Source: a virus. From it: a stretch of DNA of 64,000 nt. Below, in pieces: positions 1,717 to 63,778 of the stretch. Where the stretch lies: the IMG/VR virus record IMGVR_UViG_3300009285_007322, one strand, 5' to 3'. Numbering within the stretch: position 1 is the first letter of the stretch; each line of letters starts with the position of its first letter. A program made the position numbers and the translations under genes. The notes beneath the pieces are model-generated. The model searched no databases, was not told the DNA's origin, and was given only the letters and a program-made list of their open reading frames with translations.

Positions 1717-3045
1717 TCATCCCTCATGCCGCGCCAGGAACGAAGGAGCCCGCAAAGCTCCGGATCCGAACTGTCCCTGCGCCCGCACCCGTGCCTTCCG
1801 ACCGATCCACTCGTCCGGATTGACCAGCATATCCGCTGCGTCGGTTCTCGAGAACCCTGATCCTACCCGCCCCACAATCGGCCCATCTGGCTCGACGCTA
1901 AACCCGAACCCTCCAGCCCTGGCCGATCTGTCGGAAGTCTCAGCAGGAAAGATCTCCCTTATGTAGACGTCGTACTCGTCCTGTAACTTGTGCTTGATCG
2001 GCGTTCCTCCGGCTTTCGGCCGGAATACCACACCTTCCGATGTTAACGGATGCTTGCCGGCACGTATACGATCCAATAGCTCTCTGGAAAACTCAGGATC
2101 GTCGGACTCCTCCACTGGATGCAGTCTTCCTCCGGTCAGGTCTGCCAATCGTACAAAGTCTCTGCGCAGCTTCTCTCGGGCCGCATCGGGGATATCGGCC
2201 CGTCCGTAGAGCGCGACCAAGAGACGTATGCCCGCATCGCGCTGCCGTTCTCTGGACTTCAACGAAGAAGTATTGAGCAATCCTCCAAGCGCGTGGGCAG
2301 GTATTGCCTTTCCTCTGGCAGTTCCGTACACCTCTCCACGGTACACAGCTCCGCGCATATCTGCCGGAACAGGTACCCTGTCCAGCCCGCCAATCTTCCA
2401 AGTATAGGTCAGAGGCTGCCCGGTCTTCGACTGCCGTACACTGGACACGTCTATACGGTTCTTCAGCAGGCGCACCAGGGCTGCGGCTCCGTCGATCTTG
2501 GGAGAAGCCGCGTACTCGTCTGTCAGATAGGGCTCAGGATCCTTGGCAGACCTGTACTGCGCCTTGCCGTATTTCTTCGCATCCTTGCCGCTGCCTGTGA
2601 CATTGACCAGGAACCAGCTATTGTCTGCCTTCCTGACCAGCATGTATTCCTTCGGGTGCCTGGGATGGATAAGCGCGAAGCGTACCATCCCAGGAGCAGC
2701 GTCAGTTATAACAGCACGTCCCTTGTCCGCCATACTGACAGTTCCGGCTCCTCGTCCTTCCGGAATTGTACCCTCAAATGACCCATACGCGTACCGATGG
2801 ACCGGCTGCTGTATAGCCAGAACACTATCGCCTGGATTCTCAGGAAACCTGTCTTTCGGTATCGCCCACGACAGCAGTCCTGTAGACTTGTCGCCTATAC
2901 GAAGATCGGCATGCTTTCCTGCCCTGCGCGCCAGATGCAGCTGACGGACATAGTCGAACTCGGCTCCCTGCCTGAGCGCCGCCACGTTTCCCTGACGCCT
3001 GGTTGATCCATCGTCTGCGCGCATGTCTGTACAATAGCAGCGCAA
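1717..3045 (-). CDS. LigD-type 3'-phosphoesterase domain fused to an ATP-dependent DNA ligase
   Basis: N-terminal QLH..GKHADLR..SWAIPK..VHRYAYGSFEGTIPEG..GAGTV (LigD PE pattern). Ligase motifs I PKIDG, III GEVY, IV EGVVFR and V IKHK, plus OB domain GRVGSGFS..LRAPSF. The true start may be the GTG near 2990. Confidence 0.85.
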   Translation of the reverse strand: MRCYCTDMRADDGSTRRQGNVAALRQGAEFDYVRQLHLARRAGKHADLRIGDKSTGLLSWAIPKDRFPENPGDSVLAIQQPVHRYAYGSFEGTIPEGRGAGTVSMADKGRAVITDAAPGMVRFALIHPRHPKEYMLVRKADNSWFLVNVTGSGKDAKKYGKAQYRSAKDPEPYLTDEYAASPKIDGAAALVRLLKNRIDVSSVRQSKTGQPLTYTWKIGGLDRVPVPADMRGAVYRGEVYGTARGKAIPAHALGGLLNTSSLKSRERQRDAGIRLLVALYGRADIPDAAREKLRRDFVRLADLTGGRLHPVEESDDPEFSRELLDRIRAGKHPLTSEGVVFRPKAGGTPIKHKLQDEYDVYIREIFPAETSDRSARAGGFGFSVEPDGPIVGRVGSGFSRTDAADMLVNPDEWIGRKARVRAQGQFGSGALRAPSFLARHEG

Positions 3046-3175: not shown

Positions 3176-3213
3176 AAGAAAAAGGCCTGGAGCGGCTCTC
3201 GCCGACAGGCCTT
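3176..3213 (-). terminator. Intrinsic terminator downstream of the tRNA-like gene
   Basis: AAGGCCTG (3182-3189) and CAGGCCTT (3206-3213) form a stem followed by TTTTTCTT on the minus strand. Confidence 0.75.
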
Positions 3214-3222
3214 ATCCGAAGA

Positions 3223-3342
3223 TGGACACGGAAGGATTCGAACCTTCGAGCGGAGTAGTGCGACTGTATGCGCATGGTCCCCGCTGCCGATTTACTGGGC
3301 TACAACTCCCTCGGCCGGCTTCAACCTCTCGCCCACGTGCCC
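3223..3342 (-). tRNA. Non-canonical tRNA-Tyr-like RNA (120 nt) with G3.U70 acceptor, 20 nt anticodon loop and 38 nt variable arm; CCA not encoded
   Basis: Acceptor GGGCACG/CGTGTCC plus A73. D-arm GGC-GAGAGGTTGAA-GCC. Anticodon stem GCCGA/TCGGC with a loop ending CA-GTA-AA. T-arm GAAGG-TTCGAAT-CCTTC, a perfect canonical T-arm of the type found in E. coli tRNA-Tyr. Confidence 0.8.
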
Positions 3343-3347
3343 CCGTA

Positions 3348-3539
3348 CTAGGCCGCGTCCTCCTCCTCGTCCGTCTCTGGACGGGAGGGAAGCGTCATAT
3401 CGCGCCGACGCGCGTCTCTGTCCTCGCGCTTCGGCTTGCGATCATCACGCTTCTGCTGCTGGGCCTCCCGGTTCTGTCTTGCGATCAGTTCCAGGTAGGC
3501 GTCAGCCATACGCGGCCTCTGCTGGAAGAAGGGACTCAC
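3348..3539 (-). CDS. Small highly charged hypothetical protein (63 aa)
   Basis: Tightly packed after the 3541 ORF; stop lies 5 nt before the tRNA-like RNA. Confidence 0.6.
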   Translation of the reverse strand: MSPFFQQRPRMADAYLELIARQNREAQQQKRDDRKPKREDRDARRRDMTLPSRPETDEEEDAA

Positions 3540-4040: not shown

Positions 4041-4249
4041 GCTTGGTTCCTCCGATTCGTGGACCCAGGCTTGTGATACCCTTCCTTGTTCCGATCTGAC
4101 GGGAGGGAAGAGATCATCGAGTCATACGCCTTCGCACGCGCTGCGGCCCGTGCAGCAGCCTTCACGTTCGGCCGGTTCCATTCCGGCTTACGCTGGGCTC
4201 CAGGCTTCCGCAGCTTCTTCAGCCCAATGGGCTGGACCTTCTCAGCCAT
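4037..4249 (-). CDS. Small basic hypothetical protein (70 aa, 17 K+R)
   Basis: ATG at 4249 with GAGGAG RBS (shorter than the ORF-track call 4037..4483). Confidence 0.7.
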   Translation of the reverse strand: MAEKVQPIGLKKLRKPGAQRKPEWNRPNVKAAARAAARAKAYDSMISSLPSDRNKEGYHKPGSTNRRNQA

Positions 4250-4368
4250 TCGCTTCTCCTCTGTCCGGTTCCCGCCGGACACGGCTGCCATAATGTCTAT
4301 GGCACTATCCTGCTCACGAAGTGTGCAGGACATTGTCAAGATATTATGCCGCAGAAAACGGGTGTTTT

Positions 4369-5049
4369 TCAGGCTTCCGGAACAGTCCTGAAGATCAGGC
4401 TGCAGGAGCCTTTGGCAGGAACACAGGCCACCAGGAACCCGGCGTACACAGCGGTGTCCGGGTCTTCCACATCGGCCGGACATACTGCAATACGTGAGTC
4501 GGTTTTGTACAAGGGCAGCGAAGCGGACACCTGGAGTATCCGGACATCCCCTGCTGTCATCATCCTACCCTCCACCGTCCGGGTGTCTGGGTCCTCCCCA
4601 TCCTGCATCACACAGAGTACCCACTCGGACAGTGAAGCAACTGGAGGAGCCTGCGCAGCAGGGGCTGCAGAAGCTGCCGACACGGACGATGCCACCGATT
4701 CAGGAACAAGACGACGAAAGCGCTTCCTGGAGATCTCCGTAGTTCCAGGAAACCGAACCTGCCCTGCAGGCTTCAGGTCAATGTCCCCCGGCTTACCAGG
4801 CACGTTCACAGTGCCCAATACAAACGATCCCAGCGTATTCCCCACACTATCTTTGCCTGGGTCTATCCGTTCCACTGTCCTGGAGCTGTACCGACCGCCA
4901 AGGCCCATGTGAGCATCCCGGACCACCTGCACGTTCATGATGGTTTCCGGTTCTATACCGGAAGTCACCACCGGACGCTTGCGGCCGGAAGCGTCTGTGA
5001 CAAACTGCGGAAGATCGTCAGGCATGGTATAGACCTTTCTTGCGGACAA
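4369..5049 (-). CDS. Hypothetical protein (226 aa)
   Basis: Long ORF in the operon direction with an Ala-rich linker. Confidence 0.7.
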   Translation of the reverse strand: MSARKVYTMPDDLPQFVTDASGRKRPVVTSGIEPETIMNVQVVRDAHMGLGGRYSSRTVERIDPGKDSVGNTLGSFVLGTVNVPGKPGDIDLKPAGQVRFPGTTEISRKRFRRLVPESVASSVSAASAAPAAQAPPVASLSEWVLCVMQDGEDPDTRTVEGRMMTAGDVRILQVSASLPLYKTDSRIAVCPADVEDPDTAVYAGFLVACVPAKGSCSLIFRTVPEA

Positions 5050-5070: not shown

Positions 5071-5559
5071 TTAGCAACCCCTTGCTGCGGCGTCCCGCCA
5101 GTACTGGAGTGTGTGTGTGGCTGAAACATCCATCGGAACTCCGGCACTCACCAGCCTTCTGCGATATCCGGCAATTGCCTCCTCCAACGCGCAGCGAGGC
5201 GCATCAAAGTATGCTCTCGGGTCACATGGCCACTGGCGACTACTTTCGTGCACCAACGCCAACAGGTACCGTTTGGGAATATCAGGCGCCTCACACACTT
5301 TCAGGGCCTTGCCGTACTCAGCGTATGCTTCCAGAGCATTCGCAATCCATGTAGCATCAACCTCCATGTACGGAGTGTTCAGAAACCCAGACAATCTGCC
5401 AGCACACCTGCGCAGATTCTCCACCCTGTCCTCCTGCGCACGCTCCGCGGCCTGCACCGATCTCAAAGCGGCTCCTGTGACCTTTGGACACGAACACGGC
5501 TTGTAGGTGATCTTGATCTCAGGCATCGTCTTCTCAGGCATCTTCTTCTCCTGGCACAC
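5071..5559 (-). CDS. Hypothetical protein
   Basis: ORF in the operon direction; the start may be the downstream MPEKT/MPEIK. Confidence 0.7.
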   Translation of the reverse strand: MCQEKKMPEKTMPEIKITYKPCSCPKVTGAALRSVQAAERAQEDRVENLRRCAGRLSGFLNTPYMEVDATWIANALEAYAEYGKALKVCEAPDIPKRYLLALVHESSRQWPCDPRAYFDAPRCALEEAIAGYRRRLVSAGVPMDVSATHTLQYWRDAAARGC

Positions 5560-6032
5560 GTGTGCCGTTCACTCGGTTACCAAGCTGGAAATGGCTCAGA
5601 AACCAGCCCGGAAAGTTCATTCTGGTTTTATAAATCTGTCCCAGATCCGGGATGTGGAGCCATTTTATCCCTGGTTCCTTCCCACACCCTTCTTCCCCTT
5701 TTCGAGTCTTAATCCTGAGTACAGTCTTAAGACTCTCAAAGATATCAAAGATAACAAACAAAACGCGCGGGTACGCGCGTACGCGCGCGACCCTCCCTGC
5801 CAACAGGGTTTCCTGCCACCGACAACCGAACCTTTTCAGGACAGTCGGAAGACCTGACAGGAACTCTGGCCAGCATCTGTCGCAAACCTGTTTCCAGTAA
5901 ACACCAACAGGAGGGCAGCAGGGAAAGGCCTGGGAGCTCGCAGGAGACCTTCGGACGTGTCAGTACATGGGTAAGGGTACAAACTAGGCTGGAAGGGCCT
6001 TCCCAGCCCAATTTCAGCCAGTTGTAGCTGAA

Positions 6033-6641
6033 TCAGCCCGGAACCGAGCTTTTCAGGCAGGAGCTTTCGGACAGTACCTTGCGGCACGCCCGTGCCAGTT
6101 CCAGGGCAGCTGCGTCCGACAGACGCTGACCACACAGGGGTCCGGCAGCATCTGCCAGCCTTGGGAACTTGGCCAGGTCGCACATGTTGGCCAGCGTGGT
6201 AACCGTTCCAATTTCCAGGATACTGAACTCATTGGCCCGTGGCATACCACCAATCCGGAACCACAGGTACGGCTCCAGGGCCTGTACCAGGCTGTCATAC
6301 AGGTAGTCTGCCAGATTGTCTCGTTCCCGGAAGCCATGGATAGTCATCCATGGCTTTTCAGCAAGACGAGTGATCTGGAACATTCCTTCCATTTGCCATT
6401 TCAGCTGGACCAGCTCGGCAGTCCTAGTAGTACTCAGATGCACATGGAACGGAATCCACCCACAATACATTCCAACATCGTTCATGCGATGGAAGGCGTT
6501 GTAGTAGACGCAGTCTCCCCGCTTGTCCAGTTCGACCGTCCAGGGGACATCGATCCCACTACCATGTGACAGTATATTTACCAGGGATTCCCATCCGGGA
6601 CACATCTCTGAGAACGGTCGTATCTTTGGTTTGCTACCCAT
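6033..6641 (-). CDS. Hypothetical protein (202 aa)
   Basis: 1 nt stop/start overlap with the upstream gene; GGAGA RBS. Confidence 0.75.
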   Translation of the reverse strand: MGSKPKIRPFSEMCPGWESLVNILSHGSGIDVPWTVELDKRGDCVYYNAFHRMNDVGMYCGWIPFHVHLSTTRTAELVQLKWQMEGMFQITRLAEKPWMTIHGFRERDNLADYLYDSLVQALEPYLWFRIGGMPRANEFSILEIGTVTTLANMCDLAKFPRLADAAGPLCGQRLSDAAALELARACRKVLSESSCLKSSVPG

Positions 6642-6949
6642 CAGGTCTCCTTTCCTTTTCCAAGTTCAGCCATGATCCTGTCCAGTTCCTTATCCATCTC
6701 CACGTACCATCCACGGAACCTGGCATGCAGTTCCTGCGGACCATCCACTGCGGTCAGTGTTCCTGCGTCCAGATTAACCAGTACAGTCTTCACGGCTGTA
6801 CCAGCAATACCGATAAGATCGTCGACCGCTTGTTCCAGTTTCAGTACTTGCCCCGCTACGGTACCTTCCAGCCGTCTTTCTACGATAGTCTTCTCCAGAT
6901 GTTCCGGAAGCGGCCACAACCCAGCCATGTCGTTGTAGATATTACTCAC
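6641..6949 (-). CDS. Hypothetical protein (102 aa)
   Basis: GTG at 6949 overlaps the upstream TAG. Confidence 0.7.
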   Translation of the reverse strand: MSNIYNDMAGLWPLPEHLEKTIVERRLEGTVAGQVLKLEQAVDDLIGIAGTAVKTVLVNLDAGTLTAVDGPQELHARFRGWYVEMDKELDRIMAELGKGKET

Positions 6950-9296: not shown

Positions 9297-9811
9297 AGGA
9301 TGAGTTTCTTTCCTGTTTTGGCTTCCAGCCGTTCCTTTTCAGACATGATATGCGTAGCCAGCGTCCTACCCAGATGGACAGCTACCAGGTCCGGATTGCC
9401 CTTGTACGGATGCAGCCTGGGATCCATGTGGGGAGTACGAACCGGGAACTTGGCTTCCGGTTGCACATCGCTTCCCGGCACAGGTGTGCCGTAGCTGTCG
9501 ACTAGTGCAGCTTGCGGAATGCCGATATTTCCGTTGACGGCCTTCACCGGAACCCATACGCTGACGGTATTTGCCTGCCGGGGCCGCAGCTGCAGGAGCA
9601 CGTCCTTGAATACCCGCTCAGCGATTCCAGACAGTTCCGGCATGTACCTTTCGTATGCAGTTTCTATGGGAACCGCTGATGCCTGCAGACCCGCAGGTCT
9701 CGATGGATCCAGCAGTGCAAATGCACCATCCTGCGGAACTTCAGTCCTCTTCATCGTCTGACTCACTGAAGAAACCGGATTCTGTTTCGGCATCCTCTTC
9801 TTCCTCGTCAT
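9164..9811 (-). CDS. Hypothetical protein
   Basis: Long ORF in the operon direction. Confidence 0.7.
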   Translation of the reverse strand: MTRKKRMPKQNPVSSVSQTMKRTEVPQDGAFALLDPSRPAGLQASAVPIETAYERYMPELSGIAERVFKDVLLQLRPRQANTVSVWVPVKAVNGNIGIPQAALVDSYGTPVPGSDVQPEAKFPVRTPHMDPRLHPYKGNPDLVAVHLGRTLATHIMSEKERLEAKTGKKLILWHGNVEVLGEIPATLVDTCVNGLRLSKTAPMMYAKVFVHLREA

Positions 9812-12331: not shown

Positions 12332-13510
12332 CTACCTTTCTTGTGCACAGCGATGTGCACGGCAAAGTTCCTGCTTCGTCCCGCCCACAGGCGCAGATGC
12401 TCCTGATTCTGGACAGTCCACAGGCATTACTTCCCGGCTAGCCGCCGGTAGTTGTTGAACCAGGTTCCGAGCCGCATTGAGGTCGCGGTCCAGAACCAGC
12501 CCACAAGCATCGCATTCGAACATGCGCTGCGACAGCTTCAGAGCAGGCTTCACCTGACCGCAATTCGAGCAAGTTTTGGAACTTGGAAACCAGCGGTTGA
12601 CTACATGGATCACGGCGCCGAACGCCGCGGCCTTGTACTCCAGCTGCCTCCGCATTTCACCAAAGGCTTCTTCGGAGACATGTCTGGCCAGTTTTCGATT
12701 TCGAACCATGCCCGCTACCAACAGGTCCTCGATGACCACCGCTTTGTTCTCGCGAAGGATTATCGTGGTCGCCTTGTGCAGAAAGTCCTTGTGGATATTG
12801 GCAATCCGCCAGTGGATCTTGGCTATCCTCTTTGCCGACCTCACCCGGTTCCTGGAGCCCTTGGCTTTGCGCGAGTGCTGGCGCTGCACGCGCCTGAGTT
12901 TGCGTAACTGTTTCTTCAAGGGCTTCGGGGACCGAAACACCTGTCCGGTAGAGAGTGTGATGGATGCTTTGATTCCAAGATCCACGCCGACGCTTCCGGT
13001 TCCCGGCGTTGTCTCCGGAAGTTCGGCATCCATCGATATCGAAACGTACCAGCGGTCAGCCACTCGGCTGACTACTGCACCCTGCCTCTTGCCTTGGAAA
13101 CGCAGGGCCTCGGTCATCTTCACCCAGCCCAGAACAGGAAGATGTATGCGACGACCGTCCACCCTGAACTTGTCATTGGCTACATAAAAGCTGTCCTTCT
13201 GTCCCTTGCGCTTGAACACGGGCCTTTTAGCCGTTCCCCGGAAGAAAGCTGAGAAGCCTCTCTGCAGGTTCTGGAATGGCTGGCTGTGCGCGTCCCTGTG
13301 GATCTCGGCGATCCAAGGAAACTCTTGGTACTTGATCTCGTTGAACTGTTTCTTCAGATCCAGCCCCGATGGCTTGCCTCCGGCCTCGTACTGACTGTTC
13401 CAGGCGGCTAGAGCCCAATTGTAGACGAATCTAGCCGTACCGCAGGCCTTGCGGAAGTACCGCTCCTGACCGCAGGTAGGCTTGAGTTCGATTTTATGGG
13501 CTCTCTGCAC
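12332..13510 (-). CDS. tnpB: RNA-guided endonuclease TnpB (IS607/IS1341 type)
   Basis: N-terminal HTH AHKIELKPT..ARFVYNWAL; RuvC-I VGVDLGIK; RuvC-II VIEDL; Zn finger CSNCG..CDACG; RuvC-III DRDLNAARNL. All three catalytic acids are present. Confidence 0.95.
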   Translation of the reverse strand: MQRAHKIELKPTCGQERYFRKACGTARFVYNWALAAWNSQYEAGGKPSGLDLKKQFNEIKYQEFPWIAEIHRDAHSQPFQNLQRGFSAFFRGTAKRPVFKRKGQKDSFYVANDKFRVDGRRIHLPVLGWVKMTEALRFQGKRQGAVVSRVADRWYVSISMDAELPETTPGTGSVGVDLGIKASITLSTGQVFRSPKPLKKQLRKLRRVQRQHSRKAKGSRNRVRSAKRIAKIHWRIANIHKDFLHKATTIILRENKAVVIEDLLVAGMVRNRKLARHVSEEAFGEMRRQLEYKAAAFGAVIHVVNRWFPSSKTCSNCGQVKPALKLSQRMFECDACGLVLDRDLNAARNLVQQLPAASREVMPVDCPESGASAPVGGTKQELCRAHRCAQER

Positions 13511-13649: not shown

Positions 13650-14468
13650 TCAAATCCTTTTCGCTGTTTCCGGTTCTGCACCTCTGAGCACTACATCTTC
13701 CCGGTTCACCACAGATCCGAACGGAGGAAACGTCAGAGACCGGAACACAGACCTCTCCACAACGAGATCCGGATTCCTCCTGGCTTCGTGCCTGACAGGA
13801 AGTTTGTCAATCTCCTCCGCGGTGAAGCGCCTGGTAACCAGCTGACGCTGGCAGTACACTCCCCGTTTGTACTCCGCAGGATAGTCATTCCAATTGATAC
13901 CCTTCTCAAACAGCATCTCCTGCATCTGGTTCGACGACTTGCCAAACAGTTCCCTGTGGGAATAGAACTGTTGCGCCGCCATCGAGATGCTATTGCGAAC
14001 TGCGTCCTGTTCTCGCCAGAGAAACACGTTCGCCGCTTCGGTCTCGGCAGGAACAACCCATACCCGTGCGTCGAACGTAGGATTCATGCAGGTGACAGAC
14101 GTTCCGAACACAGTCGTGGCATTCCTGTCGAACCACAGGGTAGTCTGCGCAGCCAGCTGCGAAGTCATCTTGGCTATGCGCCCATCGAACCAGATCTGGC
14201 TTTTCGGATTGGGAGCATACCAAACGAATGTGATCTCGTCCGATTGGGTATATCCCAGGAGGGCATTCGTCTCTTCGCAGACACGCAGCATAGTCAGTTC
14301 CATGCAGCGCCTGAAGCTGGAGTCGAACGGCCTTTCCATGTTCCTGGTCAGTCTGTGAAATGCCCGGCCGTCCACCCTGCCCAATACAGGAAGCATGGGC
14401 AGCAGTCTCCTGCCGGACTCCTGTCTCTCGTACGTGCGCATGCGGCTATCCAGCGATCCCGATGCCAC
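13650..14468 (-). CDS. thg1: tRNA(His) guanylyltransferase Thg1-family (Thg1-like 3'-5' polymerase)
   Basis: RMRTYE..RVDGRAFHRLT..PFD..YTQSDEITF..FDGRIAKM..FDARV..WREQDAVRNSI..GINWNDYP..KRG; both metal-binding Asp motifs are present. Confidence 0.93.
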   Translation of the reverse strand: MASGSLDSRMRTYERQESGRRLLPMLPVLGRVDGRAFHRLTRNMERPFDSSFRRCMELTMLRVCEETNALLGYTQSDEITFVWYAPNPKSQIWFDGRIAKMTSQLAAQTTLWFDRNATTVFGTSVTCMNPTFDARVWVVPAETEAANVFLWREQDAVRNSISMAAQQFYSHRELFGKSSNQMQEMLFEKGINWNDYPAEYKRGVYCQRQLVTRRFTAEEIDKLPVRHEARRNPDLVVERSVFRSLTFPPFGSVVNREDVVLRGAEPETAKRI

Positions 14469-28643: not shown

Positions 28644-28677
28644 GAAACTGTCCGGCACAGATGTGCCGGACAGTTCC
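28644..28677 (-). terminator. 13 bp perfect hairpin after the YubB-like gene; probable terminator
   Basis: AACTGTCCGGCAC (28646-28658) and GTGCCGGACAGTT (28663-28675), 4 nt loop. Confidence 0.6.
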
Positions 28678-38662: not shown

Positions 38663-40117
38663 TCAGGTTATCCGCTGGACAATCCAGCCTTCCTTTCTGT
38701 ACCTTGCCATTCTTGCTTCGGACCTTCGTTCAAACCCACTGAACCGGTCGTAGAAGTCGATCAGGACCGCACAATCCTTACCGTCGGTCTTCCTGGCCAA
38801 TCGTCCACCTATCTGGATACATGCGATCTCATTGACAGTGCCGTCTGCACGCACCAGCCACTTGAGCTGCTTGAAGTCCATAGCTTCCCGCCAGACAGGC
38901 GTGGCGATGACCTTCTTCAGCTTCGCACTCTCGAAATCGGTGCGGCTTCCGTCCGCGTCTATGCGGAACTTGGGAAGATGCTTCCATCCAGGAGGAAGAA
39001 GCTGTCTTTCCAGCAGTTCCTCCTCGCGCTCTCCGGACGGCTGCCTGAACACGCACGTGTAGTCCGGAAGTAACCTATGTATGTTCAGCACATGCTCCAG
39101 CGTTCGGCACACGATCAGAGTCTGGTCGTCTTCCGGAATATCCCGGCACAGGTGTGCCAGAAGCCCATTCCGAGGACGATTGCACCAGATGCCCACTTTC
39201 TCCTTCACGAAATCCGGCTTGTTTTCCAGACCTTCGGGACCTTGCGCTTCATACACGTACACGTACAGCGGCACATTGGCGCCGGTGTCCACGCTGAACC
39301 GGTACGACAGGTCGACCTTGACCTTTCCGCACAGGGCTTCGATAGCCATGTCAGACTTGTCATGTCTTCCCTTGGGAGTAGCCGAGAAACCATATACCCG
39401 CTTGCCTGCAAGAGCCAGCAAACGTTCAAAAGACTTATCCGATCCCGCTCCATGCACCTCGTCAATCAGCACAATGTCGATGTTGTCTGCGGGAAGGCGA
39501 TGCAGACTCTTGTCGGCCAGGACATAGATATCTGCATCAAAGCAGGAAGAGTTGGCTCTGAGCAGGCACACCGTCTTCTCCGGAACACCCGTCCTGACAC
39601 GATCGTAGATACTGTCGCGTGCGTCTCCCTTGAAAGTCACGACCGCTACTTTGGACTTGCCGCAGGCGCGCAGGAACTGGACGATGGTCTCAGTCTTGCC
39701 AAGACCCGTGGCCGCCTTGATGGTGGCACGGCGTTCCGTGCCCATGACCTGCAGAATCTCTGGTTGTCCCGGACGCAGATCTACCGATAGCTGCGACAGG
39801 TCGAGGGGCTCCGGCTTTGTACTCAGGTCCATTACCGTATAGGCTACACGCAGCTTTGCCAAACCGTCTGAAATCCGGTCCAGCAAGCCAGGATACGAAT
39901 ACCCGACCTGATGCTGATCGGTAGAATCCTTGTCCAGCGTGTAGAGCTGTTCCTCGCGTACTACCGGACGTCTATCCACCCGCCAGTTGCCGGAAGCGGT
40001 AAGGACGGGCTGCTGCAGGACCATGCGGCGCTTGAATCCAAGCAGGTGCTCGAGTTCAGGTATCCATGGGTCCACCAGCACATAGGCGTCCGCAACCACA
40101 ACCGTTGTCTGTCTCAC
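38663..40117 (-). CDS. Superfamily 2 helicase (UvsW/XPB-like)
   Basis: AATGLGKT (I); LIDEVH (II); FSATP (III); IQIGGRLAR (VI). GTG at 40117 overlaps the upstream TGA. Confidence 0.92.
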   Translation of the reverse strand: MRQTTVVVADAYVLVDPWIPELEHLLGFKRRMVLQQPVLTASGNWRVDRRPVVREEQLYTLDKDSTDQHQVGYSYPGLLDRISDGLAKLRVAYTVMDLSTKPEPLDLSQLSVDLRPGQPEILQVMGTERRATIKAATGLGKTETIVQFLRACGKSKVAVVTFKGDARDSIYDRVRTGVPEKTVCLLRANSSCFDADIYVLADKSLHRLPADNIDIVLIDEVHGAGSDKSFERLLALAGKRVYGFSATPKGRHDKSDMAIEALCGKVKVDLSYRFSVDTGANVPLYVYVYEAQGPEGLENKPDFVKEKVGIWCNRPRNGLLAHLCRDIPEDDQTLIVCRTLEHVLNIHRLLPDYTCVFRQPSGEREEELLERQLLPPGWKHLPKFRIDADGSRTDFESAKLKKVIATPVWREAMDFKQLKWLVRADGTVNEIACIQIGGRLARKTDGKDCAVLIDFYDRFSGFERRSEARMARYRKEGWIVQRIT

Positions 40118-44197: not shown

Positions 44198-44697
44198 ATC
44201 TGTAGAATAAACCTGTGCTTAGACCGACGGACAAAGTCCCTGCCTAGCTCGGCAATGATCCTGTCCTCCAGCAATTTCAGATGCTCGTCAGTCGGGTAGT
44301 GTGAGTCTTTGGCCGGATACAATTCGACCATCGGCCTACAGCCTGGAACTGCAACATGTTTGATCTCCCGGCACACCTGTGCCAGTTCATCGCTGTCTAG
44401 GAACATCAGGACATAGTTGGCAAGGATAGCTGTAGCCCATGTTACGGGGCACGGCAGTAAATCGTGCCCCAGCATACATGCACGAACATCTGTGACATCA
44501 GGACAGGCATCAACGGCAACGACAGTTGCTCCGAGGTGCTGCAGGTACCGAGCATTTCTTCCGTTGCCACAGCCCAGATCAAGCACACGGTTACCAGCTT
44601 TACCAAGCAACAGCCTCGCGTACTTTCTGAGATATGGAGTTGGATCTGTTCTTCCGCACCGCACACACCATCTGTCGTTCATGTACTGTCGACTCAC
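44191..44697 (-). CDS. Class I SAM-dependent methyltransferase
   Basis: VLDLGCGNGRNARYL..VVAVD..ILANYVLMFL. Confidence 0.9.
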   Translation of the reverse strand: MSRQYMNDRWCVRCGRTDPTPYLRKYARLLLGKAGNRVLDLGCGNGRNARYLQHLGATVVAVDACPDVTDVRACMLGHDLLPCPVTWATAILANYVLMFLDSDELAQVCREIKHVAVPGCRPMVELYPAKDSHYPTDEHLKLLEDRIIAELGRDFVRRSKHRFILQIC

Positions 44698-47921: not shown

Positions 47922-48983
47922 ATGAATCCGTTTGTCGACATCTATCACGACAAGAGCAAGACTGTCCTGCAGCAGATCATGGCGGATCGTCCGGATCTGC
48001 CGCCGTTCGTGGTGCAGCATCGCGCTATGACAGATGACGAGATCGCTCATCTTTCTTCTGCAGAGTTCGCCGACATGCGCAACCGCATGTTTCCCATCTG
48101 CTCGCGCGCAGAGACCTGGAACAGCATTGCGTATTTTAATCGCCAGCCCCTGGTGGAGAAAAAGGCTGTGCTTTCACCGGAGTCCTTCGCGGCCAGAGAA
48201 ATGATTCGGGAAACCCTTGCCAAGGCTGCCTCTCTGTGGGGGCTTGACGACGAAGAGGTCGAAATGCTGTCCAAGCAGGTCACACTAAGGGTTCCCAAGA
48301 AAGCCGAAACAGACAACATCATAGAGTTCCATGGCACATCTGTGCCGGTGACTGACGCCATTTCCGGCAAAACGGTAGTGGCTCAGTTCCTGGAATGCGC
48401 TTCGGATATGCCAGAGAGCGAGCGGCGTAGCACTGCCACGTGTGTGCTCAAGGCCGCGAGCTCCGTCGACACGGTAGTTCCGGAAGCCCAGATCCGTACG
48501 CTGCTGCAGCACGCAGGCGCGGCCACCTGTACCAGGGAAGACGCCCTGTCCGTGCTGGACGGCGTCATCCCGTACATTCCTCACTACGCAGAGGCCGCCA
48601 AGACCACCAGAAACGTACGAGACTGCCTGCGCAAAATGCCGGAAGGCTCGCTCATGCAGCCAAATGACGTGAATGCCATGGTGGATTCTCTCGAAAGTAT
48701 CTCTCACCGGTACGATATCCGCCACGCCGCTGTGGCAGAAGGCCTGCGGCGCATCACCACTGCGGACATCGAGGCCGAGATGGCCGAACAGGCGGATATG
48801 GTGAAGCTGCCCGGGGGTATCATGGCACGCAAGAGCGCCATCGCCGAAAACGCAATGACCCTCAGCGATATGATGCACAACCTGTACCAGGTTGAAGCCC
48901 ACCGTCCGGAAGACATCGTGACTGCGCTGGGTAAGCTCACCCCCAGGGAAATCCTGCCGCTCCGCAACCATATCGGGGCATGA
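47922..48983 (+). CDS. Hypothetical head-morphogenesis-region protein (353 aa)
   Basis: FAD..RMFPI..AETW.S..YF motif; follows terminase. Function is inference. Confidence 0.7.
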   Translation: MNPFVDIYHDKSKTVLQQIMADRPDLPPFVVQHRAMTDDEIAHLSSAEFADMRNRMFPICSRAETWNSIAYFNRQPLVEKKAVLSPESFAAREMIRETLAKAASLWGLDDEEVEMLSKQVTLRVPKKAETDNIIEFHGTSVPVTDAISGKTVVAQFLECASDMPESERRSTATCVLKAASSVDTVVPEAQIRTLLQHAGAATCTREDALSVLDGVIPYIPHYAEAAKTTRNVRDCLRKMPEGSLMQPNDVNAMVDSLESISHRYDIRHAAVAEGLRRITTADIEAEMAEQADMVKLPGGIMARKSAIAENAMTLSDMMHNLYQVEAHRPEDIVTALGKLTPREILPLRNHIGA

Positions 48984-52356: not shown

Positions 52357-52802
52357 CGGACGTTTCCTTTCTGATTCCTGTCGATTCCTGTGAGCACATG
52401 CATTCCTGACACCGGTACATATACCGGGGATACACTGGTAAGACTGCAGAAGTCAGCCTGCACGAACAACAGCCGGGTGGACTGGACAGTGTCGCCGGAA
52501 GGCAGGATCACGTGACCCGGAAGCAGAGCCGAAGCTTTCACCGAACCCGCACCGGTCCGGACCACTGTGTCTGGAAGGGCATACATGCGTCGGCTGCCGT
52601 GTTCGGCAGACACTACCAGCAGCTCGATCACCGTACCAGTTCCATGTGCCGGAACAATACGTACCCTGGCCTGAACACGGTTCAGGCTGTCCGGATGGAA
52701 AGCCTGTACGGAGACTTCCTTGAATAGCAGGCGTCGAAGCTGAACGCGAGATCCGGCAGAGTCGACTTGGCAGTCGTCCGGCACACCTGTGCCGCCGATC
52801 AT
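52353..52802 (-). CDS. Stand-alone Hint (intein-like) domain protein lacking splicing residues (149 aa)
   Basis: GVPDDCQVDSAGSRVQLRRL..VSVQAFHPDS..ARV parallels Hint block A. VVRTGAGSVKASALLPGHVI parallels TxxGwxxAxxLxxGDxI. C-terminal FCSL..SGMHVLT parallels YDL..GixVHN. Cys1, the block B His and the terminal His-Asn are all replaced. Confidence 0.55.
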   Translation of the reverse strand: MIGGTGVPDDCQVDSAGSRVQLRRLLFKEVSVQAFHPDSLNRVQARVRIVPAHGTGTVIELLVVSAEHGSRRMYALPDTVVRTGAGSVKASALLPGHVILPSGDTVQSTRLLFVQADFCSLTSVSPVYVPVSGMHVLTGIDRNQKGNVR

Positions 52803-53584
52803 ACCGATCCGGAGGGGCGGGCCTGCAGTTTGTCGATGATCGTCTGGATCCTCGAACTCACTGCGGCGGGTGTCAGCTTCAGCCGTCTGGCTATTTCCTG
52901 TTTCTGCAGAAGCTTGCTTCCGCCATATCCTGTAGTCCATTCGAATATCTTTCGGCTCTTTGGATCCAGGTCGTGGTATACATAGTCCCGCCATGGATCG
53001 TTGCTTTCGTCAGGTGCTCCCTGGAGGAGCGTGTCGCCCTTTTCGGTCTCCAGTCCGGCTTCGGAGATTTCCTTGAACGCGGCCGAGGCCAGATTGATCC
53101 TGCTCTTGCTCAGTCCAGTCTGTTCGGACAGCGTCCCGATGTCCGGTTCGAATCCTTCCGTGTCCTCGAACTCGCGTACCGTGTCTCGCAGTAAGATAGC
53201 ATCCATACGCGAGCGTTCCGGCAATCTCACTGCAGCTGCCCTGTCCGCAGCCACGCGCTGCAGACGCTGAAGGTGGGAATGCACATAGGTACTTAGCTGC
53301 GCTTTCTTCCCGTCTTTGTTCGGATCGAACTGTCTGACAGCCTCCGAAGCCAGTATCCTGGCCTTCGTCCGTAATTCCTGCCTGCCACCGCCGTACGCAT
53401 TCAAGCCCCGCTGAATACTTGGCTCCAGCGTGCGCATGACCGTGTCGAAGTCCTTCTGCTGTCCTGTAGCCTTCCAGGCCGAGTATGCATCAGACAGGTT
53501 CGGGAGATTCGACTGCTTTTCCGGAGTTTCCTCTGCCCGCGGCAGCAAGTCCGGACTCTGTGAGTTCTTTAGCTTTGGCAGCAT
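52799..53584 (-). CDS. sigma70-family RNA polymerase sigma factor
   Basis: Region 2 EAVRQFDP..LSTYV; VRLPE; region 3 PDIGTLSEQTGLS; region 4 LDPKSRKIF..QEIARRLKLTPAAVS. Confidence 0.88.
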   Translation of the reverse strand: MLPKLKNSQSPDLLPRAEETPEKQSNLPNLSDAYSAWKATGQQKDFDTVMRTLEPSIQRGLNAYGGGRQELRTKARILASEAVRQFDPNKDGKKAQLSTYVHSHLQRLQRVAADRAAAVRLPERSRMDAILLRDTVREFEDTEGFEPDIGTLSEQTGLSKSRINLASAAFKEISEAGLETEKGDTLLQGAPDESNDPWRDYVYHDLDPKSRKIFEWTTGYGGSKLLQKQEIARRLKLTPAAVSSRIQTIIDKLQARPSGSV

Positions 53585-54870: not shown

Positions 54871-55317
54871 TCAGACGCCAGCATTGCGTTTCCTTTCGCA
54901 CGTCGCCGTACAGCTACATTCTGGACCATCTGCCCTGTCTTCGTCAACTGGTAGCTCTTTCTGTCCGAACTGCTTCCAGTCCGGCATGTCCGCCAATTCC
55001 TTCGGAAGCCAGCTGCGCTTGATCATCTCCTCATAGTGCAAGACAAACATGGCATTGCACATGATCGCCGCCATGTGATCTTCACTCGCGTCTCCCTGCC
55101 TGTATTGCATCAGATGACGTTCCAGACTGGTAATACACCTGGAGATCGGCATTCCCTTGGCCCAGTTCCATGCAGCGTACTTGCGTGCTCCATCCCGCAG
55201 CCAGTTCCCCAACCGCTCTGCGGCGAATGGACTGGACAGGTCCGGCCTGGATTTGCTGTCTGCAGTATCCCGCACAGCTCCTGTATCGAATTGTTCGCGC
55301 TTTCCGGAATCATGCAT
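54871..55317 (-). CDS. dATP/dGTP diphosphohydrolase-domain (DUF5664-type) protein
   Basis: F.TGAVRD..K.RPDL..GARKY..WNW.KGMP..SLERHL..EDHMAAIMCNAMF. Confidence 0.88.
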   Translation of the reverse strand: MHDSGKREQFDTGAVRDTADSKSRPDLSSPFAAERLGNWLRDGARKYAAWNWAKGMPISRCITSLERHLMQYRQGDASEDHMAAIMCNAMFVLHYEEMIKRSWLPKELADMPDWKQFGQKELPVDEDRADGPECSCTATCERKRNAGV

Positions 55318-55885
55318 GTCGGATATCTTTCCAGCTATCGTTCTCAGCCAGTTCCAGCAAACCTTCCATATCGATGCCAAAGCCTCCCCAGAACCTCCAG
55401 TTGTATGGCGTGTCAGCGCTCGAATACATGAGCACGCAAGGAACCCCTGCCATGACCGCTGCAGCCACATTCGCAGGGCTGTCGTCGACAACCACATCAG
55501 GACCGATCTTGAGGTAGATCTGCATCTTGGAAGACGAAGCCTCGAGCAGGACAGCAGCAACGTCAGGAAACAGTTCAGCGATCTGTTTCGCAGTCCTTTC
55601 ATGAATAGCTTTGTCCCTGCAGGTGGCGATCCAGACATCGTGTCCTTTCCGGCACAGCTGTGCCACAAATGCCTGAGCTCCTGAACGCACAGGCAGGGTA
55701 CACATGAACTCAGGATCCGAGAACAGCTCATACACACGAGCACGCACATCCTGCTGGATAGTGGTAAAACACCAATCGCGGGCGTCCAGCATCGTATGCT
55801 GTCCAGGACGCCCCAGATCGCTGCATGCCCTTTCGAGCACAGGCATTTCCAGCAATGTAGAGTCGAGATCGACCACGAATTTCAT
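55310..55885 (-). CDS. HAD-superfamily 5'(3')-deoxyribonucleotidase-like phosphatase
   Basis: VDLDSTL (motif I); IATCR (II); K..VVVDDSP.N (III/IV). Confidence 0.85.
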   Translation of the reverse strand: MKFVVDLDSTLLEMPVLERACSDLGRPGQHTMLDARDWCFTTIQQDVRARVYELFSDPEFMCTLPVRSGAQAFVAQLCRKGHDVWIATCRDKAIHERTAKQIAELFPDVAAVLLEASSSKMQIYLKIGPDVVVDDSPANVAAAVMAGVPCVLMYSSADTPYNWRFWGGFGIDMEGLLELAENDSWKDIRHA

Positions 55886-55911
55886 CCCGGGCCTTCCTGG
55901 AATCAATCCGT

Positions 55912-58889: not shown

Positions 58890-59606
58890 TTAGCGGAAGT
58901 TGAGTGCCTTCGGTACTCGCACACGCACAGGATTGCCGTCTACCACTCCTATGTAGATCATGCCATCTGTTCCATCATTAACTGGAAATCCTCCCTGAAC
59001 CACGCCATCCAGCGCACCCCCTTCGTAGGAAATCAACGCTGTTCCATCAGGACGCCTGACGGCCGACAGTGCCGCCTGGTCGTAGTTAGGTTTCTGCCTG
59101 ACCGGTTCGGAAACAGCGGTTTCAGCTGCAGTACCAGCAGCCTGCGGGACTGGAAGCCTCGGCGATTCCAGAAGAGTGTCCATCCACGACGGACGTTCAG
59201 CGTCCTCCAGTGGTGCTCTGACGGGAAGAGAAGCAGGTTTGGAGAACACTTCCTTCCGTGTCGGAGCTGGTGGCACAGGTGTGCCGGAAATCTCCGGAAA
59301 CTCCATGTCCTTGACAATGGTGCACCGGCGGTTGTACAGGGGAATCACAGAGTCCCCGACCTTGATCACCACCGGAGTTCCGTCCGGATTCGTGGCCACC
59401 GTCTCATCTATCACGATTCCACTTTGTCCAGAGAACGTATTGGTTCTGGACAGAATCTCCACAGCACCGCTGCTGAGTGCAGTCTTCAGGATATCTGAAG
59501 ACACTGGAGAACTACGAATCAAAGAAGGCTGATCAGGACGAGGGCGTGACACAATGCAGCCAGCGAGCAAGAGAGAAGCAACGATACATACCTGGAGACT
59601 TTTCAC
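58890..59606 (-). CDS. Pro-rich lipoprotein (238 aa)
   Basis: Lipobox LAGC (Cys17). Confidence 0.8.
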   Translation of the reverse strand: MKSLQVCIVASLLLAGCIVSRPRPDQPSLIRSSPVSSDILKTALSSGAVEILSRTNTFSGQSGIVIDETVATNPDGTPVVIKVGDSVIPLYNRRCTIVKDMEFPEISGTPVPPAPTRKEVFSKPASLPVRAPLEDAERPSWMDTLLESPRLPVPQAAGTAAETAVSEPVRQKPNYDQAALSAVRRPDGTALISYEGGALDGVVQGGFPVNDGTDGMIYIGVVDGNPVRVRVPKALNFR

Positions 59607-59931: not shown

Positions 59932-60014
59932 CTGATGTCGTGCGCCCCGCTGCCGTCCGCATCGTCGTACCTCCTGCGGGCACCATGCCCGGTGTTACGC
60001 TACCACGCGCGCGG

Positions 60015-60170
60015 TCACTTCGCCACGGGTCGCAGGCCCAGAGCCTGCTCCAGCGTCTCCACGCGTGCCCGTAGCTGCGGCACGCTGTTCTCGCTGCCGG
60101 GGTTCGCGGCCACCGCCGTGCGCTTTGCCTTGCGGGGCAGGTACTCGCTCTTGTCGTGTCGGTGCGTCAT
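60015..60170 (-). CDS. Small hypothetical protein (51 aa)
   Basis: ATGA overlap; LRARVETLEQAL coil typical of tail-fibre-associated peptides. Confidence 0.6.
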   Translation of the reverse strand: MTHRHDKSEYLPRKAKRTAVAANPGSENSVPQLRARVETLEQALGLRPVAK

Positions 60171-60571: not shown

Positions 60572-60572
60572 G

Positions 60573-61397: not shown

Positions 61398-61400
61398 GGA

Positions 61401-63293: not shown

Positions 63294-63305
63294 CCGCTAT
63301 TCACC

Positions 63306-63776: not shown

Positions 63777-63778
63777 GT

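What the first reader, a model, noticed from the sequence alone, without database searches (positions are those of the whole stretch)
3223..3342. Chimeric tRNA-like RNA: tRNA-Tyr body, alanine identity acceptor, blocked anticodon and giant variable arm
Seen in the sequence: GGGCACG UG GGC GAGAGGUUGAA GCC G GCCGA [GGGAGUUGUAGCC CAGUAAA] UCGGC [38 nt variable hairpin AGCGGGG..UGCG CAUACAGU CGCA..CUCCGCU C] GAAGG UUCGAAU CCUUC CGUGUCC A. The acceptor, D and T arms are perfectly paired, so this is not simple decay. The anticodon loop carries a 13 nt insertion (a second UUGUAG inside a GGG/CCC mini-hairpin) and A at position 33. Established knowledge: G3.U70 with G1:C72, G2:C71 and A73 is the AlaRS identity set also used by tmRNA; GUA plus a long variable arm marks bacterial tRNA-Tyr. 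Inference: the RNA could be alanylated but unable to decode, acting as a tmRNA-like or non-ribosomal Ala donor, an anticodon-nuclease decoy, or a T-box/RelA/EF-Tu modulator. Alternatively it is a tRNA with a novel short intron that would insert Ala at Tyr codons.
Basis: partly seen in the sequence, partly recalled or inferred. Interest (0 to 1): 0.85.

Follow-up and report, generated by a model that had tools for sequence, protein, structure and literature searches.

The report
Phage tRNA mimic matching sigma gene
A groundwater phage carries a tRNA-shaped RNA gene that cannot read codons, occurs in two very different versions in one phage population, and in one version ends in 21 bases exactly complementary to the phage's own sigma-factor mRNA, which suggests a tRNA-scaffolded antisense regulator more than an alanine carrier.

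Summary
Window 3223-3342 (minus strand) folds as a complete class II cloverleaf (Rfam tRNA 37.3 bits). It has a 20-nt loop at the anticodon position, a 38-nt variable arm, G3.U70 and A73. ARAGORN does not call it.

Three new facts change the reading:

1. **Two alleles.** Near-identical contigs of the same phage carry a second, 102-nt allele B at exactly this spot, and both alleles occur in the same samples. B keeps all 15 acceptor, D and T pairs, one through a change on both sides. It has G3:C70, a 6-nt T loop, no Tyr-like loop remnant and no Rfam tRNA score. The alanine identity set is therefore not conserved.
2. **No relatives.** Related phages lack the element, and no other relative turned up in viral, metagenome or genome collections.
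3. **A match to the sigma gene.** The last 21 nt of allele A (T loop to position 72, including U70) are exactly complementary to the mRNA of the phage's own sigma-70-family gene (53145-53165). This is the longest repeat in the window. Phages without the element match 15-16 of 21.

Best reading (about 0.4): a tRNA-derived, non-decoding RNA acting as a trans antisense regulator of sigma mRNA. The main rival is a decaying tRNA relic.

The scan has noted other phage tRNA look-alikes with A33 and giant arms on other DNA, but not this family.

The parts
3223..3342 (-). tRNA-like RNA gene, allele A (120 nt). In RNA numbering: acceptor 1-7/113-119, D arm 10-26, anticodon-position arm 28-57 with a 20-nt loop, variable arm 58-95, T arm 96-112, A73 at position 120.
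   Evidence: Identical in 7 independent contigs.
3286..3315 (-). Arm at the anticodon position. A 5-bp stem GCCGA/UCGGC closes 20 nt. The GGG/CCC mini-hairpin has an 8-nt loop AGUUGUAG, followed by unpaired AGUAAA.
   Evidence: Allele B keeps only the mini-hairpin part.
3248..3285 (-). 38-nt variable arm: an outer 7-bp stem and an inner UGCG/CGCA hairpin. The inner hairpin is also present in allele B.
3224..3244 (-). 21-nt 3' segment of the RNA (positions 99-119): last two bases of the T stem 5' strand, T loop, T stem 3' strand, acceptor 3' strand including U70. It is exactly complementary to the sigma mRNA.
53145..53165 (-). Target site inside the sigma-factor ORF. The codons (GA)G GAC ACG GAA GGA TUC GAA CC(G) encode E-D-T-E-G-F-E-P. 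The minus-strand mRNA is complementary to RNA positions 99-119.
52799..53584 (-). Phage sigma-70-family factor gene (261 aa).
   Evidence: PHROG 351 'RNA polymerase sigma factor', E = 2.5e-11. Homologues are named 'specialized sigma subunit' and carry PF04539. Weak region 4/HTH hits.
3176..3213 (-). Terminator-like hairpin (8-bp stem AAGGCCUG/CAGGCCUU) plus a U run, ending the transcription unit just after the RNA.
   Evidence: Sequence. Resembles terminator-bearing RNAs in Rfam. The simple scan does not list it because the loop exceeds 8 nt.
3348..3509 (-). Last of four small ORFs upstream (53 aa as called; 63 aa from an upstream GTG at 3539). Its stop lies 5 nt before the RNA. Its last codons belong to the polymorphic patch.
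3214..3343 (.). Polymorphic patch. In allele B genomes these 130 nt are replaced by 109 nt. Linked changes at 3378, 3380 and 3386.

Best explanation
The element is a phage RNA gene descended from a class II tRNA (the Leu/Tyr/Ser type) that no longer decodes.

**Shown**
- Both alleles keep the acceptor, D and T stems, while the anticodon-position arm and the variable arm differ freely.
- Allele A's 3' 21 nt are exactly complementary to the coding region of the phage's own sigma-factor mRNA.

**Inferred mechanism**
- The RNA is transcribed at the end of the four-ORF operon.
- Host tRNA-processing enzymes cut it out: RNase P at G1, plus 3' trimming.
- The tRNA core gives it a stable, protected shape.
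- In allele A the T loop starts pairing with the sigma mRNA, and the pairing spreads through the T stem and the acceptor 3' strand into a 21-bp duplex.
- The duplex would block ribosomes inside the ORF or expose the mRNA to a duplex-specific or tRNA-specific nuclease. Candidates are RNase III, or RNase P acting as with an external guide sequence.
- The result would be to limit or time sigma-factor expression.

On this reading G3.U70 is a by-product of matching the Asp codon GAC, not an alanine signal. Allele B would be a weak or null regulatory variant.
For: **1. The gene is real and maintained.**
- Rfam tRNA 37.3 bits.
- All 15 acceptor, D and T pairs are standard in both alleles, although 6 pairs differ. 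2:71 changed on both sides (GC to AU) and five changed on one side.
- Seven random substitutions in those 30 stem bases keep all pairs in 0.02% of trials with any base change, and in 4% with transitions only.
- Outside these stems and the T loop the alleles differ by many substitutions and indels.

**2. The complementarity is real.**
- It is exact over 21 nt and is the longest direct or inverted repeat in the 64-kb window.
- My arithmetic: about 3e-6 such matches are expected by chance.
- Predicted duplex energy is -43.4 kcal/mol, against a mean of -12.5 (sd 3.8) over all window sites.
- Cofolding still gains 16.8 kcal/mol after the RNA's own stems are opened.

**3. The target is a regulator.** It is a sigma-70-family gene, and both genes are transcribed from the same DNA strand.

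**4. The match goes with the element.**
- The site matches 21/21 in this phage and 20/21 in a 98%-identical strain.
- It matches only 15-16/21 in four 67-74% relatives.
- One of these, L108, comes from the same samples as the ligase relative whose syntenic site lacks the RNA. That phage also scored nothing with the model built from the two alleles.

**5. Two apparent recent changes both increase the match.**
- One of only two point differences between the two strains' sigma genes is AAG (Lys, the commoner residue in relatives) to ACG (Thr) inside the site.
- U70 in allele A stands where allele B, and the similar acceptor stem of the phage's own tRNA-Ile, have C70.

**6. A precedent exists.** A phage antisense RNA matured by RNase P is known (C4 of P1/P7), and a guide pairing with an mRNA makes that mRNA an RNase P substrate (PMC11143913).
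Against: - Allele B does not keep the pairing. Its 3' end matches 15/21, with 12 contiguous pairs including one G.U. Its duplex energy of -24.5 kcal/mol is barely above the next-best sites at -22.7, and the cofolding gain is only 4.3 kcal/mol.
- The sigma site is identical in samples holding both alleles, and in one sample where only B was seen. So there is no covariation, and the pairing is not needed for the phage to persist.
- The 21 nt are locked in the RNA's own T and acceptor stems, so pairing needs unfolding.
- There is only one lineage and no RNA data. No RNA sequencing run holds the locus.
- Part of the match comes free. The conserved sigma motif G-x-E-P fits the universal T-loop sequence, which explains the 15-16/21 baseline.
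- Short-tract gene conversion between the two sites cannot be excluded.
Confidence: 0.4

Rival explanations
1. It is a decaying phage tRNA gene. A class II tRNA picked up by the phage lost its anticodon loop to insertions and is drifting. Allele B is a more decayed copy brought in by recombination. The sigma match comes from the G-x-E-P/T-loop coincidence plus short-tract gene conversion or chance, and has no function.
For: - Allele B has a 6-nt T loop, a weak D stem (G:C, G.U, U.G) and no Rfam tRNA score even at E up to 10. Its best fold is not a cloverleaf: -42.0 against -29.9 kcal/mol.
- Related phages do without the element.
- This phage population shows several other patches of dense divergence, at 4200-4300, 5300-5600 and 5800-6600, so patchwise recombination is common here.
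- Five of the seven stem changes are C to U opposite G, which keeps a wobble pair without any selection.
- Both alleles persist at similar depth.
Against: - All 15 core pairs survive in both alleles, including one two-sided change.
- Allele A keeps every base needed for the tRNA elbow.
- A 21/21 match, the longest repeat in the window, is hard to reach by drift (about 3e-6 expected by chance).
- Gene conversion has no flanking homology to start from.
- Two independent recent changes both raise the match.
Confidence: 0.25
2. It is a bait or sponge for a host factor that acts on tRNA, such as an anticodon nuclease or another tRNA-targeting defence, or for a tRNA-binding enzyme. The conserved acceptor/T core gives recognition, the odd anticodon-position hairpin presents a look-alike loop, and allele turnover reflects an arms race.
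For: - Phage tRNAs are known counter-defences. T5-like tRNA-Tyr acts against retron-Eco7 PtuAB (PMC11555353). Anticodon-loop variants evade anticodon nucleases (PMC10264068) and PARIS (PMC11464382), both listed.
- Both alleles show U-G-U in the apical loop: UGUA (Tyr-like) in A and UGUU (Asn-like) in B.
- Two strongly different alleles coexist.
- The phage also carries a Thg1-like tRNA 5'-end repair enzyme.
- Earlier notes of this scan describe other phage tRNA look-alikes with A33 and giant arms (unchecked here).
Against: - No defence system or host is known.
- In the published cases the phage tRNA must still decode, and this RNA cannot.
- The loop motif is short and could be chance.
- This reading does not explain the 21-nt sigma match.
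Confidence: 0.15
3. One reading: allele A is charged with alanine by AlaRS through G3.U70. As a class II body with A73 it might instead be charged by LeuRS. It would then act as a non-decoding aminoacyl carrier or as a modulator of EF-Tu, T-box or RelA.
For: - G1:C72, G2:C71, G3.U70 and A73 are all present in allele A.
- Established knowledge: G3.U70 is enough for AlaRS to charge even acceptor/T minihelices.
- The tRNA elbow is intact in allele A.
Against: - Allele B has G3:C70 and A2:U71.
- No CCA is encoded, whereas the phage's real tRNA-Ile does encode it.
- U70 is explained equally well by the sigma match.
- No partner enzyme for a non-ribosomal alanine transfer was seen among about 70 ORFs scanned.
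- ARAGORN found no tmRNA and Rfam no tmRNA family in the window.
Confidence: 0.08
4. The two 21-nt copies are a DNA-level recombination site (inversion or att-like), or the RNA is a true decoding tRNA once a short intron is removed.
For: - Exact short repeats with sharp borders are typical of site-specific recombination cores.
- The 3' ends of tRNA genes are common att sites.
Against: - No integrase or invertase domain was found in the ORFs scanned.
- The copy lies inside a conserved stretch of the sigma ORF without any indel.
- No alternative junctions appear in four runs.
- No species-representative genome carries a tRNA with this 3' end.
- Intron reading: 13 nt fits no bacterial intron class, the phage shows no splicing enzyme, and allele B lacks the would-be exon part of the loop.
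Confidence: 0.05

Closest known systems
C4 antisense RNA of phages P1 and P7 (Hartmann et al. 1995, cited in PMC11143913)
   Same: It is a phage-encoded antisense regulator. It is cut from a longer transcript by host RNase P because its ends mimic a tRNA acceptor stem, and it acts by base pairing with a phage regulatory mRNA.
   Different: - C4 is 77 nt and not a full cloverleaf.
- It pairs through loops with sites on its own transcript, not with a sigma gene 50 kb away.
- Processing and pairing of the present RNA are inferred, not shown.
External guide sequences for RNase P (Forster and Altman 1990; PMC11143913)
   Same: The 3' part of a tRNA (acceptor 3' strand plus T arm) pairs with an mRNA, so that the hybrid looks like a pre-tRNA and can be cut by RNase P. 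The complementary 21 nt here are exactly that part of the molecule and are followed by the unpaired A73.
   Different: - EGSs are engineered, and I know of no natural case.
- Here the guide strand is occupied by its own 5' strand.
- No CCA is encoded.
- Cleavage is untested.
Class II tRNAs (bacterial tRNA-Leu, Tyr, Ser; Rfam RF00005)
   Same: - 7-bp acceptor stem.
- 3-bp D stem with the long D loop carrying G18 and G19.
- Canonical T arm.
- Long variable arm.
- A73, as in Leu and Tyr.
   Different: - A 20-nt loop instead of a 7-nt anticodon loop.
- A at the would-be position 33.
- A 38-nt variable arm, where my recollection is about 13-21 nt for known class II tRNAs.
- No CCA, and not called by ARAGORN.
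- Allele B has a 6-nt T loop and no tRNA score.
Phage tRNAs that counter tRNA-targeting defences: T5-like tRNA-Tyr against retron-Eco7 (PMC11555353); tRNA-Lys variants against PARIS and PrrC (PMC11464382, PMC10264068)
   Same: These are phage-borne tRNA genes with altered anticodon loops. They evolve fast and have roles beyond codon supply.
   Different: Those tRNAs still decode, and their rescue needs the anticodon. This RNA cannot decode.
tRNA-like domain of tmRNA
   Same: An acceptor stem with G3.U70 plus a T arm, with no anticodon. Allele B's predicted fold (acceptor, one long connecting helix, T arm) has the same outline.
   Different: - No mRNA-like reading frame and no pseudoknots.
- ARAGORN found no tmRNA and Rfam no tmRNA family in the window.
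- G3.U70 is absent from allele B.
Phage tRNA look-alikes with A33 and giant variable arms noted earlier in this scan (e1-3451191, e1-2903477, e1-3509812)
   Same: A phage tRNA-shaped gene with A in place of U33 and an oversized variable arm, read as a non-decoding mimic.
   Different: - Those are Lys(UUU)-type families of gut phages with 53-87-nt arms.
- No sequence relation was found to this element.
- None was reported to match a phage gene.
- They are unchecked AI notes.

Membership tests
Canonical tRNA (Rfam RF00005) | Cloverleaf with 7-bp acceptor, D arm, T arm and the conserved elbow bases | tested here: met
   Allele A scores 37.3 bits (gathering score 29) with all 71 model positions matched. 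U8, A14, G18, G19 and the UUCGAAU loop are read from the sequence. Allele B has no hit at E up to 10.
Canonical tRNA (Rfam RF00005) | 7-nt anticodon loop with U33 and a purine at 37 on a 5-bp stem | tested here: not met
   Allele A has a 20-nt loop. ARAGORN finds no tRNA. Allele B can be drawn with a 7-nt loop GUGUUAG only if an A.C mismatch in the stem is accepted.
Canonical tRNA (Rfam RF00005) | Mature 3' CCA end and aminoacylation | not testable with these tools
   No CCA is encoded: A73 is followed by UCU. The phage's own tRNA-Ile encodes CCA.
Bacterial tRNA-Tyr | GUA anticodon in a normal loop | tested here: not met
   GUA occurs twice (in UUGUAG and in CAGUAAA) but never in a 7-nt loop with U33. 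The CAGUAAA part is absent from allele B.
Bacterial tRNA-Tyr | Body closer to Tyr than to other class II tRNAs | tested here: not met
   The model built from both alleles scores tRNA-Leu genes that share the T arm at 28-33 bits and the one tRNA-Tyr at 27 bits. The set is small and biased, and no tRNA-Ser was in it.
AlaRS substrates (tRNA-Ala, tmRNA) | G3.U70 in the acceptor stem, helped by A73 and G2:C71 | tested here: inconclusive
   Present in allele A and absent in allele B, which has G3:C70 and A2:U71. Charging itself cannot be tested here.
tmRNA | tRNA-like domain joined to a tag reading frame and pseudoknots | tested here: not met
   ARAGORN finds no tmRNA and the Rfam gathering scan has no hit. 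A 120-nt RNA has no room for a tag frame.
Intron-bearing tRNA | Group I intron (bacteria) or bulge-helix-bulge motif (archaea) at the insertion | tested here: not met
   The extra 13 nt are far too short for a group I intron, and no intron family hit was found. No 3-4-3 bulge-helix-bulge can be drawn (sequence). The gene set and the terminator look bacterial.
Trans-acting antisense RNA | Extended complementarity to a target mRNA beyond chance | tested here: met
   21/21 to the sigma mRNA. It is the longest repeat of the window and the top non-self duplex at -43.4 kcal/mol.
Trans-acting antisense RNA | Pairing kept across variants (covariation of RNA and target) | tested here: not met
   Allele B matches 15/21, and the sigma site does not change with it. 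Within the A lineage, the Lys-to-Thr change raises the match from 20 to 21.
Trans-acting antisense RNA | Expression and an effect on the target | not testable with these tools
   No RNA run holds the locus.

The most novel reading that the evidence does not exclude
A phage uses a complete tRNA scaffold as the carrier of an antisense sequence. The host's tRNA-processing enzymes cut the RNA out. Its T loop and acceptor 3' strand then pair over 21 nt with the phage's own sigma-factor mRNA. The hybrid is cut by RNase P as a natural external guide sequence, or it blocks translation, and this sets the timing of the phage transcription programme. The coexisting allele B would be a natural regulatory variant.
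Probability: 0.25. Interest if true: 0.85.

Novelty: new variant of a known kind. Interest (0 to 1): 0.6.

Why it matters
**If the pairing works**
- It would be the first case I know of in which a whole tRNA fold serves as the vehicle for a trans-antisense sequence aimed at a phage sigma factor.
- It could also be the first natural counterpart of Altman's external guide sequences.
- It would add a new job to the list of things phage tRNA genes do, beside codon supply and escape from tRNA-cutting defences.
- It would suggest searching odd phage tRNAs for matches to phage genes.

**If the pairing does not work**
- The locus still shows that a striking 'alanine identity' in one sequence can vanish in the next allele.
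- It also documents two coexisting alleles, more than 30% diverged, of an RNA gene in an otherwise 98-100% identical phage population.

Tried and rejected
- **Phage records.** blastn of the locus and of the RNA matched only the T arms of unrelated tRNAs. E. coli genomes gave nothing.
- **IMG/VR.** The exact 25-mer found nothing. The ligase protein found no relative. The three hits of a degenerate pattern were chance matches in coding DNA.
- **Metagenome and genome pattern scans**. They returned ordinary tRNAs, tmRNA ends, and alleles A and B themselves. No host tRNA has this 3' end, so an att-site reading has no support.
- **Synteny.** Ligase relatives at 53-58% identity lack the element. Neither ARAGORN, my scan nor the model R1 found a tRNA or tRNA-like gene in any relative's locus.
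- **Own genome.** No whole genome is held.
- **Expression.** No RNA run holds the locus. Both read-laying runs went to allele structure.
- **Covariation of the sigma site with allele B.** Looked for and not found.
- **Other antisense targets.** No further match of 12 nt or more was found for either allele.
- **Link to neighbouring genes.** The downstream gene is a LigD-phosphoesterase/DNA ligase fusion that is common in phages and present in relatives without the RNA. I drop the idea of an RNA-repair pair.
- **Thg1-like and TnpB genes.** They lie 9-11 kb away, and nothing links them to this RNA.
- **Intron, tmRNA and Y-RNA readings.** The first two are rejected in the membership table. Y RNA is rejected because the ends of this RNA form the acceptor stem, not a Ro-binding stem.

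Full report
**What is there.**
The element lies on the minus strand at 3223-3342. It reads as a full cloverleaf:
- a 7-bp acceptor stem with G3.U70 and discriminator A73;
- a 3-bp D stem with a class II type D loop;
- a 5-bp stem at the anticodon position that closes 20 nt instead of 7;
- a 38-nt variable arm;
- a textbook T arm.

The Rfam tRNA model scores it at 37.3 bits over all 71 positions. The MFE fold is the cloverleaf. ARAGORN calls no tRNA anywhere in the window, and the fast-filtered Rfam run missed it. My scan for a canonical T arm plus a perfect acceptor finds only this locus in the window. No CCA is encoded.

The RNA sits 5 nt after the stop of the last of four small ORFs and directly before a terminator-like hairpin.

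**Where it comes from.**
The window is part of a 102.8-kb groundwater metagenome contig with phage-type genes:
- family A DNA polymerase, primase and helicases;
- a LigD-phosphoesterase/DNA ligase fusion just downstream of the RNA;
- a Thg1-like enzyme;
- a TnpB;
- a sigma factor.

No whole genome is held.

**Two alleles.**
Ten near-identical contigs from different samples were fetched through the ligase. Six carry the window's version, allele A, without a single change. Three carry a 102-nt allele B at exactly the same place, between the same stop codon and the same terminator. In the tenth the spot is masked by N. JGI metagenomes hold one more contig of each allele.

Public contigs show 130 nt replaced by 109 nt at 3214-3343. 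Both forms occur in the same runs at similar depth: 9.6 against 11.8, and 2.5 against 3.9. Of the 56 differences between an allele B contig and the window over 5.1 kb, 54 fall in 3200-3399. Other strain pairs show further dense patches elsewhere, so patchwise exchange is common in this population.

**What the alleles share.**
All 15 acceptor, D and T pairs are standard pairs in both alleles. Six pairs differ: 2:71 changed on both sides (GC to AU) and five changed on one side. Seven random changes in those 30 stem bases would keep every pair in 0.02% of trials with any base change, and in 4% with transitions only. The core stems have therefore been under selection in both lineages.

**What the alleles do not share.**
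Allele B differs in these ways:
- it has G3:C70, so the alanine determinant is gone;
- its T loop has 6 nt;
- it gets no Rfam tRNA score;
- it is predicted to fold with a long connecting helix in place of a D arm: -42.0 against -29.9 kcal/mol for the cloverleaf.

**No wider family.**
- Phages related through the ligase (53-58% identity) have a small ORF, or a small ORF and a terminator, directly before the ligase, with no RNA gene.
- Searches of phage records, IMG/VR, JGI metagenomes and one genome per prokaryote species found only ordinary tRNAs, tmRNA ends and the two alleles themselves.
- Among tRNAs sharing the T arm, a covariance model of the two alleles scores tRNA-Leu slightly above tRNA-Tyr. 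'Class II tRNA-derived' is as far as the evidence goes.

**The unexpected link.**
While looking for antisense targets, I found that RNA positions 99-119 of allele A recur exactly, in inverted orientation, at 53145-53165. These positions run from the last two bases of the T stem 5' strand through the T loop and T stem to position 72. This is the longest direct or inverted repeat in the whole window; the next longest are 16-18-nt copies of a palindromic motif. By my arithmetic about 3e-6 such matches are expected by chance.

The copy lies inside a 261-aa ORF on the minus strand, which is a sigma-70-family factor:
- PHROG 351, E = 2.5e-11;
- homologues named 'specialized sigma subunit' and carrying PF04539.

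Both genes are read from the minus strand, so the two transcripts are complementary. The predicted duplex is -43.4 kcal/mol, eight standard deviations beyond the window-wide mean. Cofolding still gains 16.8 kcal/mol after the RNA's own stems are opened.

**Is the match more than a by-product?**
The site encodes E-D-T-E-G-F-E-P. The conserved G-x-E-P of sigma region 3 happens to fit the universal T-loop sequence, and this explains a baseline.
- Four relatives of 67-74% protein identity match 15-16 of 21. One of them comes from the same samples as the ligase relative whose syntenic site lacks the RNA.
- This phage matches 21 of 21. A 98%-identical strain matches 20 of 21.
- The two strains' sigma genes differ by only two point changes and one 12-nt indel. 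One of those point changes is AAG (Lys, the commoner residue in relatives) to ACG (Thr) inside the site, which completes the match.
- On the RNA side, U70 pairs with the A of the Asp codon. Allele B has C70 there, and so does the similar acceptor stem of the phage's own tRNA-Ile. The G3.U70 'alanine' pair may therefore be a consequence of the match.
- Given the peptide, the phage's codon usage would produce these exact codons with probability 0.006.

**What weakens the antisense reading.**
- Allele B matches only 15 of 21. Its duplex energy of -24.5 kcal/mol is close to the next-best sites, and the cofolding gain is 4.3 kcal/mol.
- The sigma site is identical in runs holding both alleles, and in a run where only B was seen. 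There is no covariation, and the pairing is not essential.
- The pairing strand is buried in the RNA's own helices.
- There are no RNA data, and only one lineage is known.

**Verdict.**
*Shown:*
- a real, selected, non-decoding tRNA-derived RNA gene at the end of an operon;
- two coexisting, strongly diverged alleles;
- an alanine identity set that is not conserved;
- an exact 21-nt complementarity of allele A to the phage sigma-factor mRNA.

*Inferred:*
- maturation by the host's tRNA enzymes;
- antisense action on sigma expression, possibly through RNase P as with an external guide sequence, or through RNase III or a translational block.

I put about 0.4 on that mechanism. The rivals are:
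- 0.25 on a decaying relic whose match arose by short conversion;
- 0.15 on a bait for tRNA-targeting host factors;
- 0.08 on an alanine-charged (or leucine-charged) carrier;
- 0.05 on a DNA recombination site or an intron-bearing tRNA.

**Comparison with known systems.**
- *C4 antisense RNA of P1/P7.* It works most like this phage antisense RNA, which RNase P matures, and like engineered external guide sequences (PMC11143913).
- *Canonical tRNA.* It is not a member of the decoding tRNAs, because the anticodon loop test fails.
- *tRNA-Tyr, tmRNA and intron-bearing tRNAs.* It is not a member of any of these.
- *Counter-defence phage tRNAs.* It resembles them only in being a fast-evolving phage tRNA gene (PMC11555353, PMC10264068, PMC11464382).
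- *Earlier notes of this scan.* They describe other phage tRNA look-alikes with A33 and giant arms on other DNA. They are unrelated in sequence, and I did not check them.

Noticed in passing
window 9473-9490, 28652-28669, 39141-39158, 44368-44384, 48333-48348, 52777-52794, 59271-59288, 63311-63327: A palindromic motif of the form CCGGCACA-NN-TGTGCCGG recurs at least eight times. One copy lies just past the stop of the sigma gene. It could be a family of terminator hairpins or a regulator binding site.
   Followed up: no
L054 3051-3127 (minus strand), about 4 kb before window position 1: The phage carries one canonical tRNA-Ile(UAU) with an encoded CCA. Its acceptor stem (UGGCACG/CGUGCCA) resembles that of the tRNA-like RNA at positions 2-7 and 66-69 and 71.
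   Followed up: partly
window 13650-14468 (-): A Thg1-like tRNA-His guanylyltransferase / 3'-5' polymerase gene: PF04446 at 93 bits, PHROG 4717 at E = 3.8e-75. It lies next to a TnpB gene at 12332-13510. A phage tRNA 5'-end repair function is possible.
   Followed up: partly
window 54871-55749 (-), 55310-55906 (-): One ORF carries the N-terminal domain of dATP/dGTP diphosphohydrolases (PF18909, 68 bits). From memory, this domain is linked to 2-aminoadenine (Z) genomes. An overlapping ORF in another frame has a weak 5'-nucleotidase hit. I did not look for PurZ.
   Followed up: no
window 4200-4399, 5300-5699, 5800-6699: Near-identical strain contigs show further short patches of dense divergence, up to about 18% over 200 nt, in an otherwise 99-100% identical background. 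This points to frequent patchwise recombination in this phage population.
   Followed up: partly
window 60001-64000: G+C rises from about 0.56 to 0.69 and 0.62. The ORFs there have no Pfam hit. Glycosyl- and methyltransferase genes follow beyond the window end.
   Followed up: no
window 1717-3045 (-): A fusion of the LigD 3'-phosphoesterase domain with an ATP-dependent DNA ligase. It is widespread in uncultured phages: 146 relatives, many of them with extra domains.
   Followed up: partly
L102 3553-3564 (sigma gene of a 98%-identical strain): A 12-nt in-frame duplication (DESN repeated) in the acidic linker of the sigma factor distinguishes two strains.
   Followed up: no
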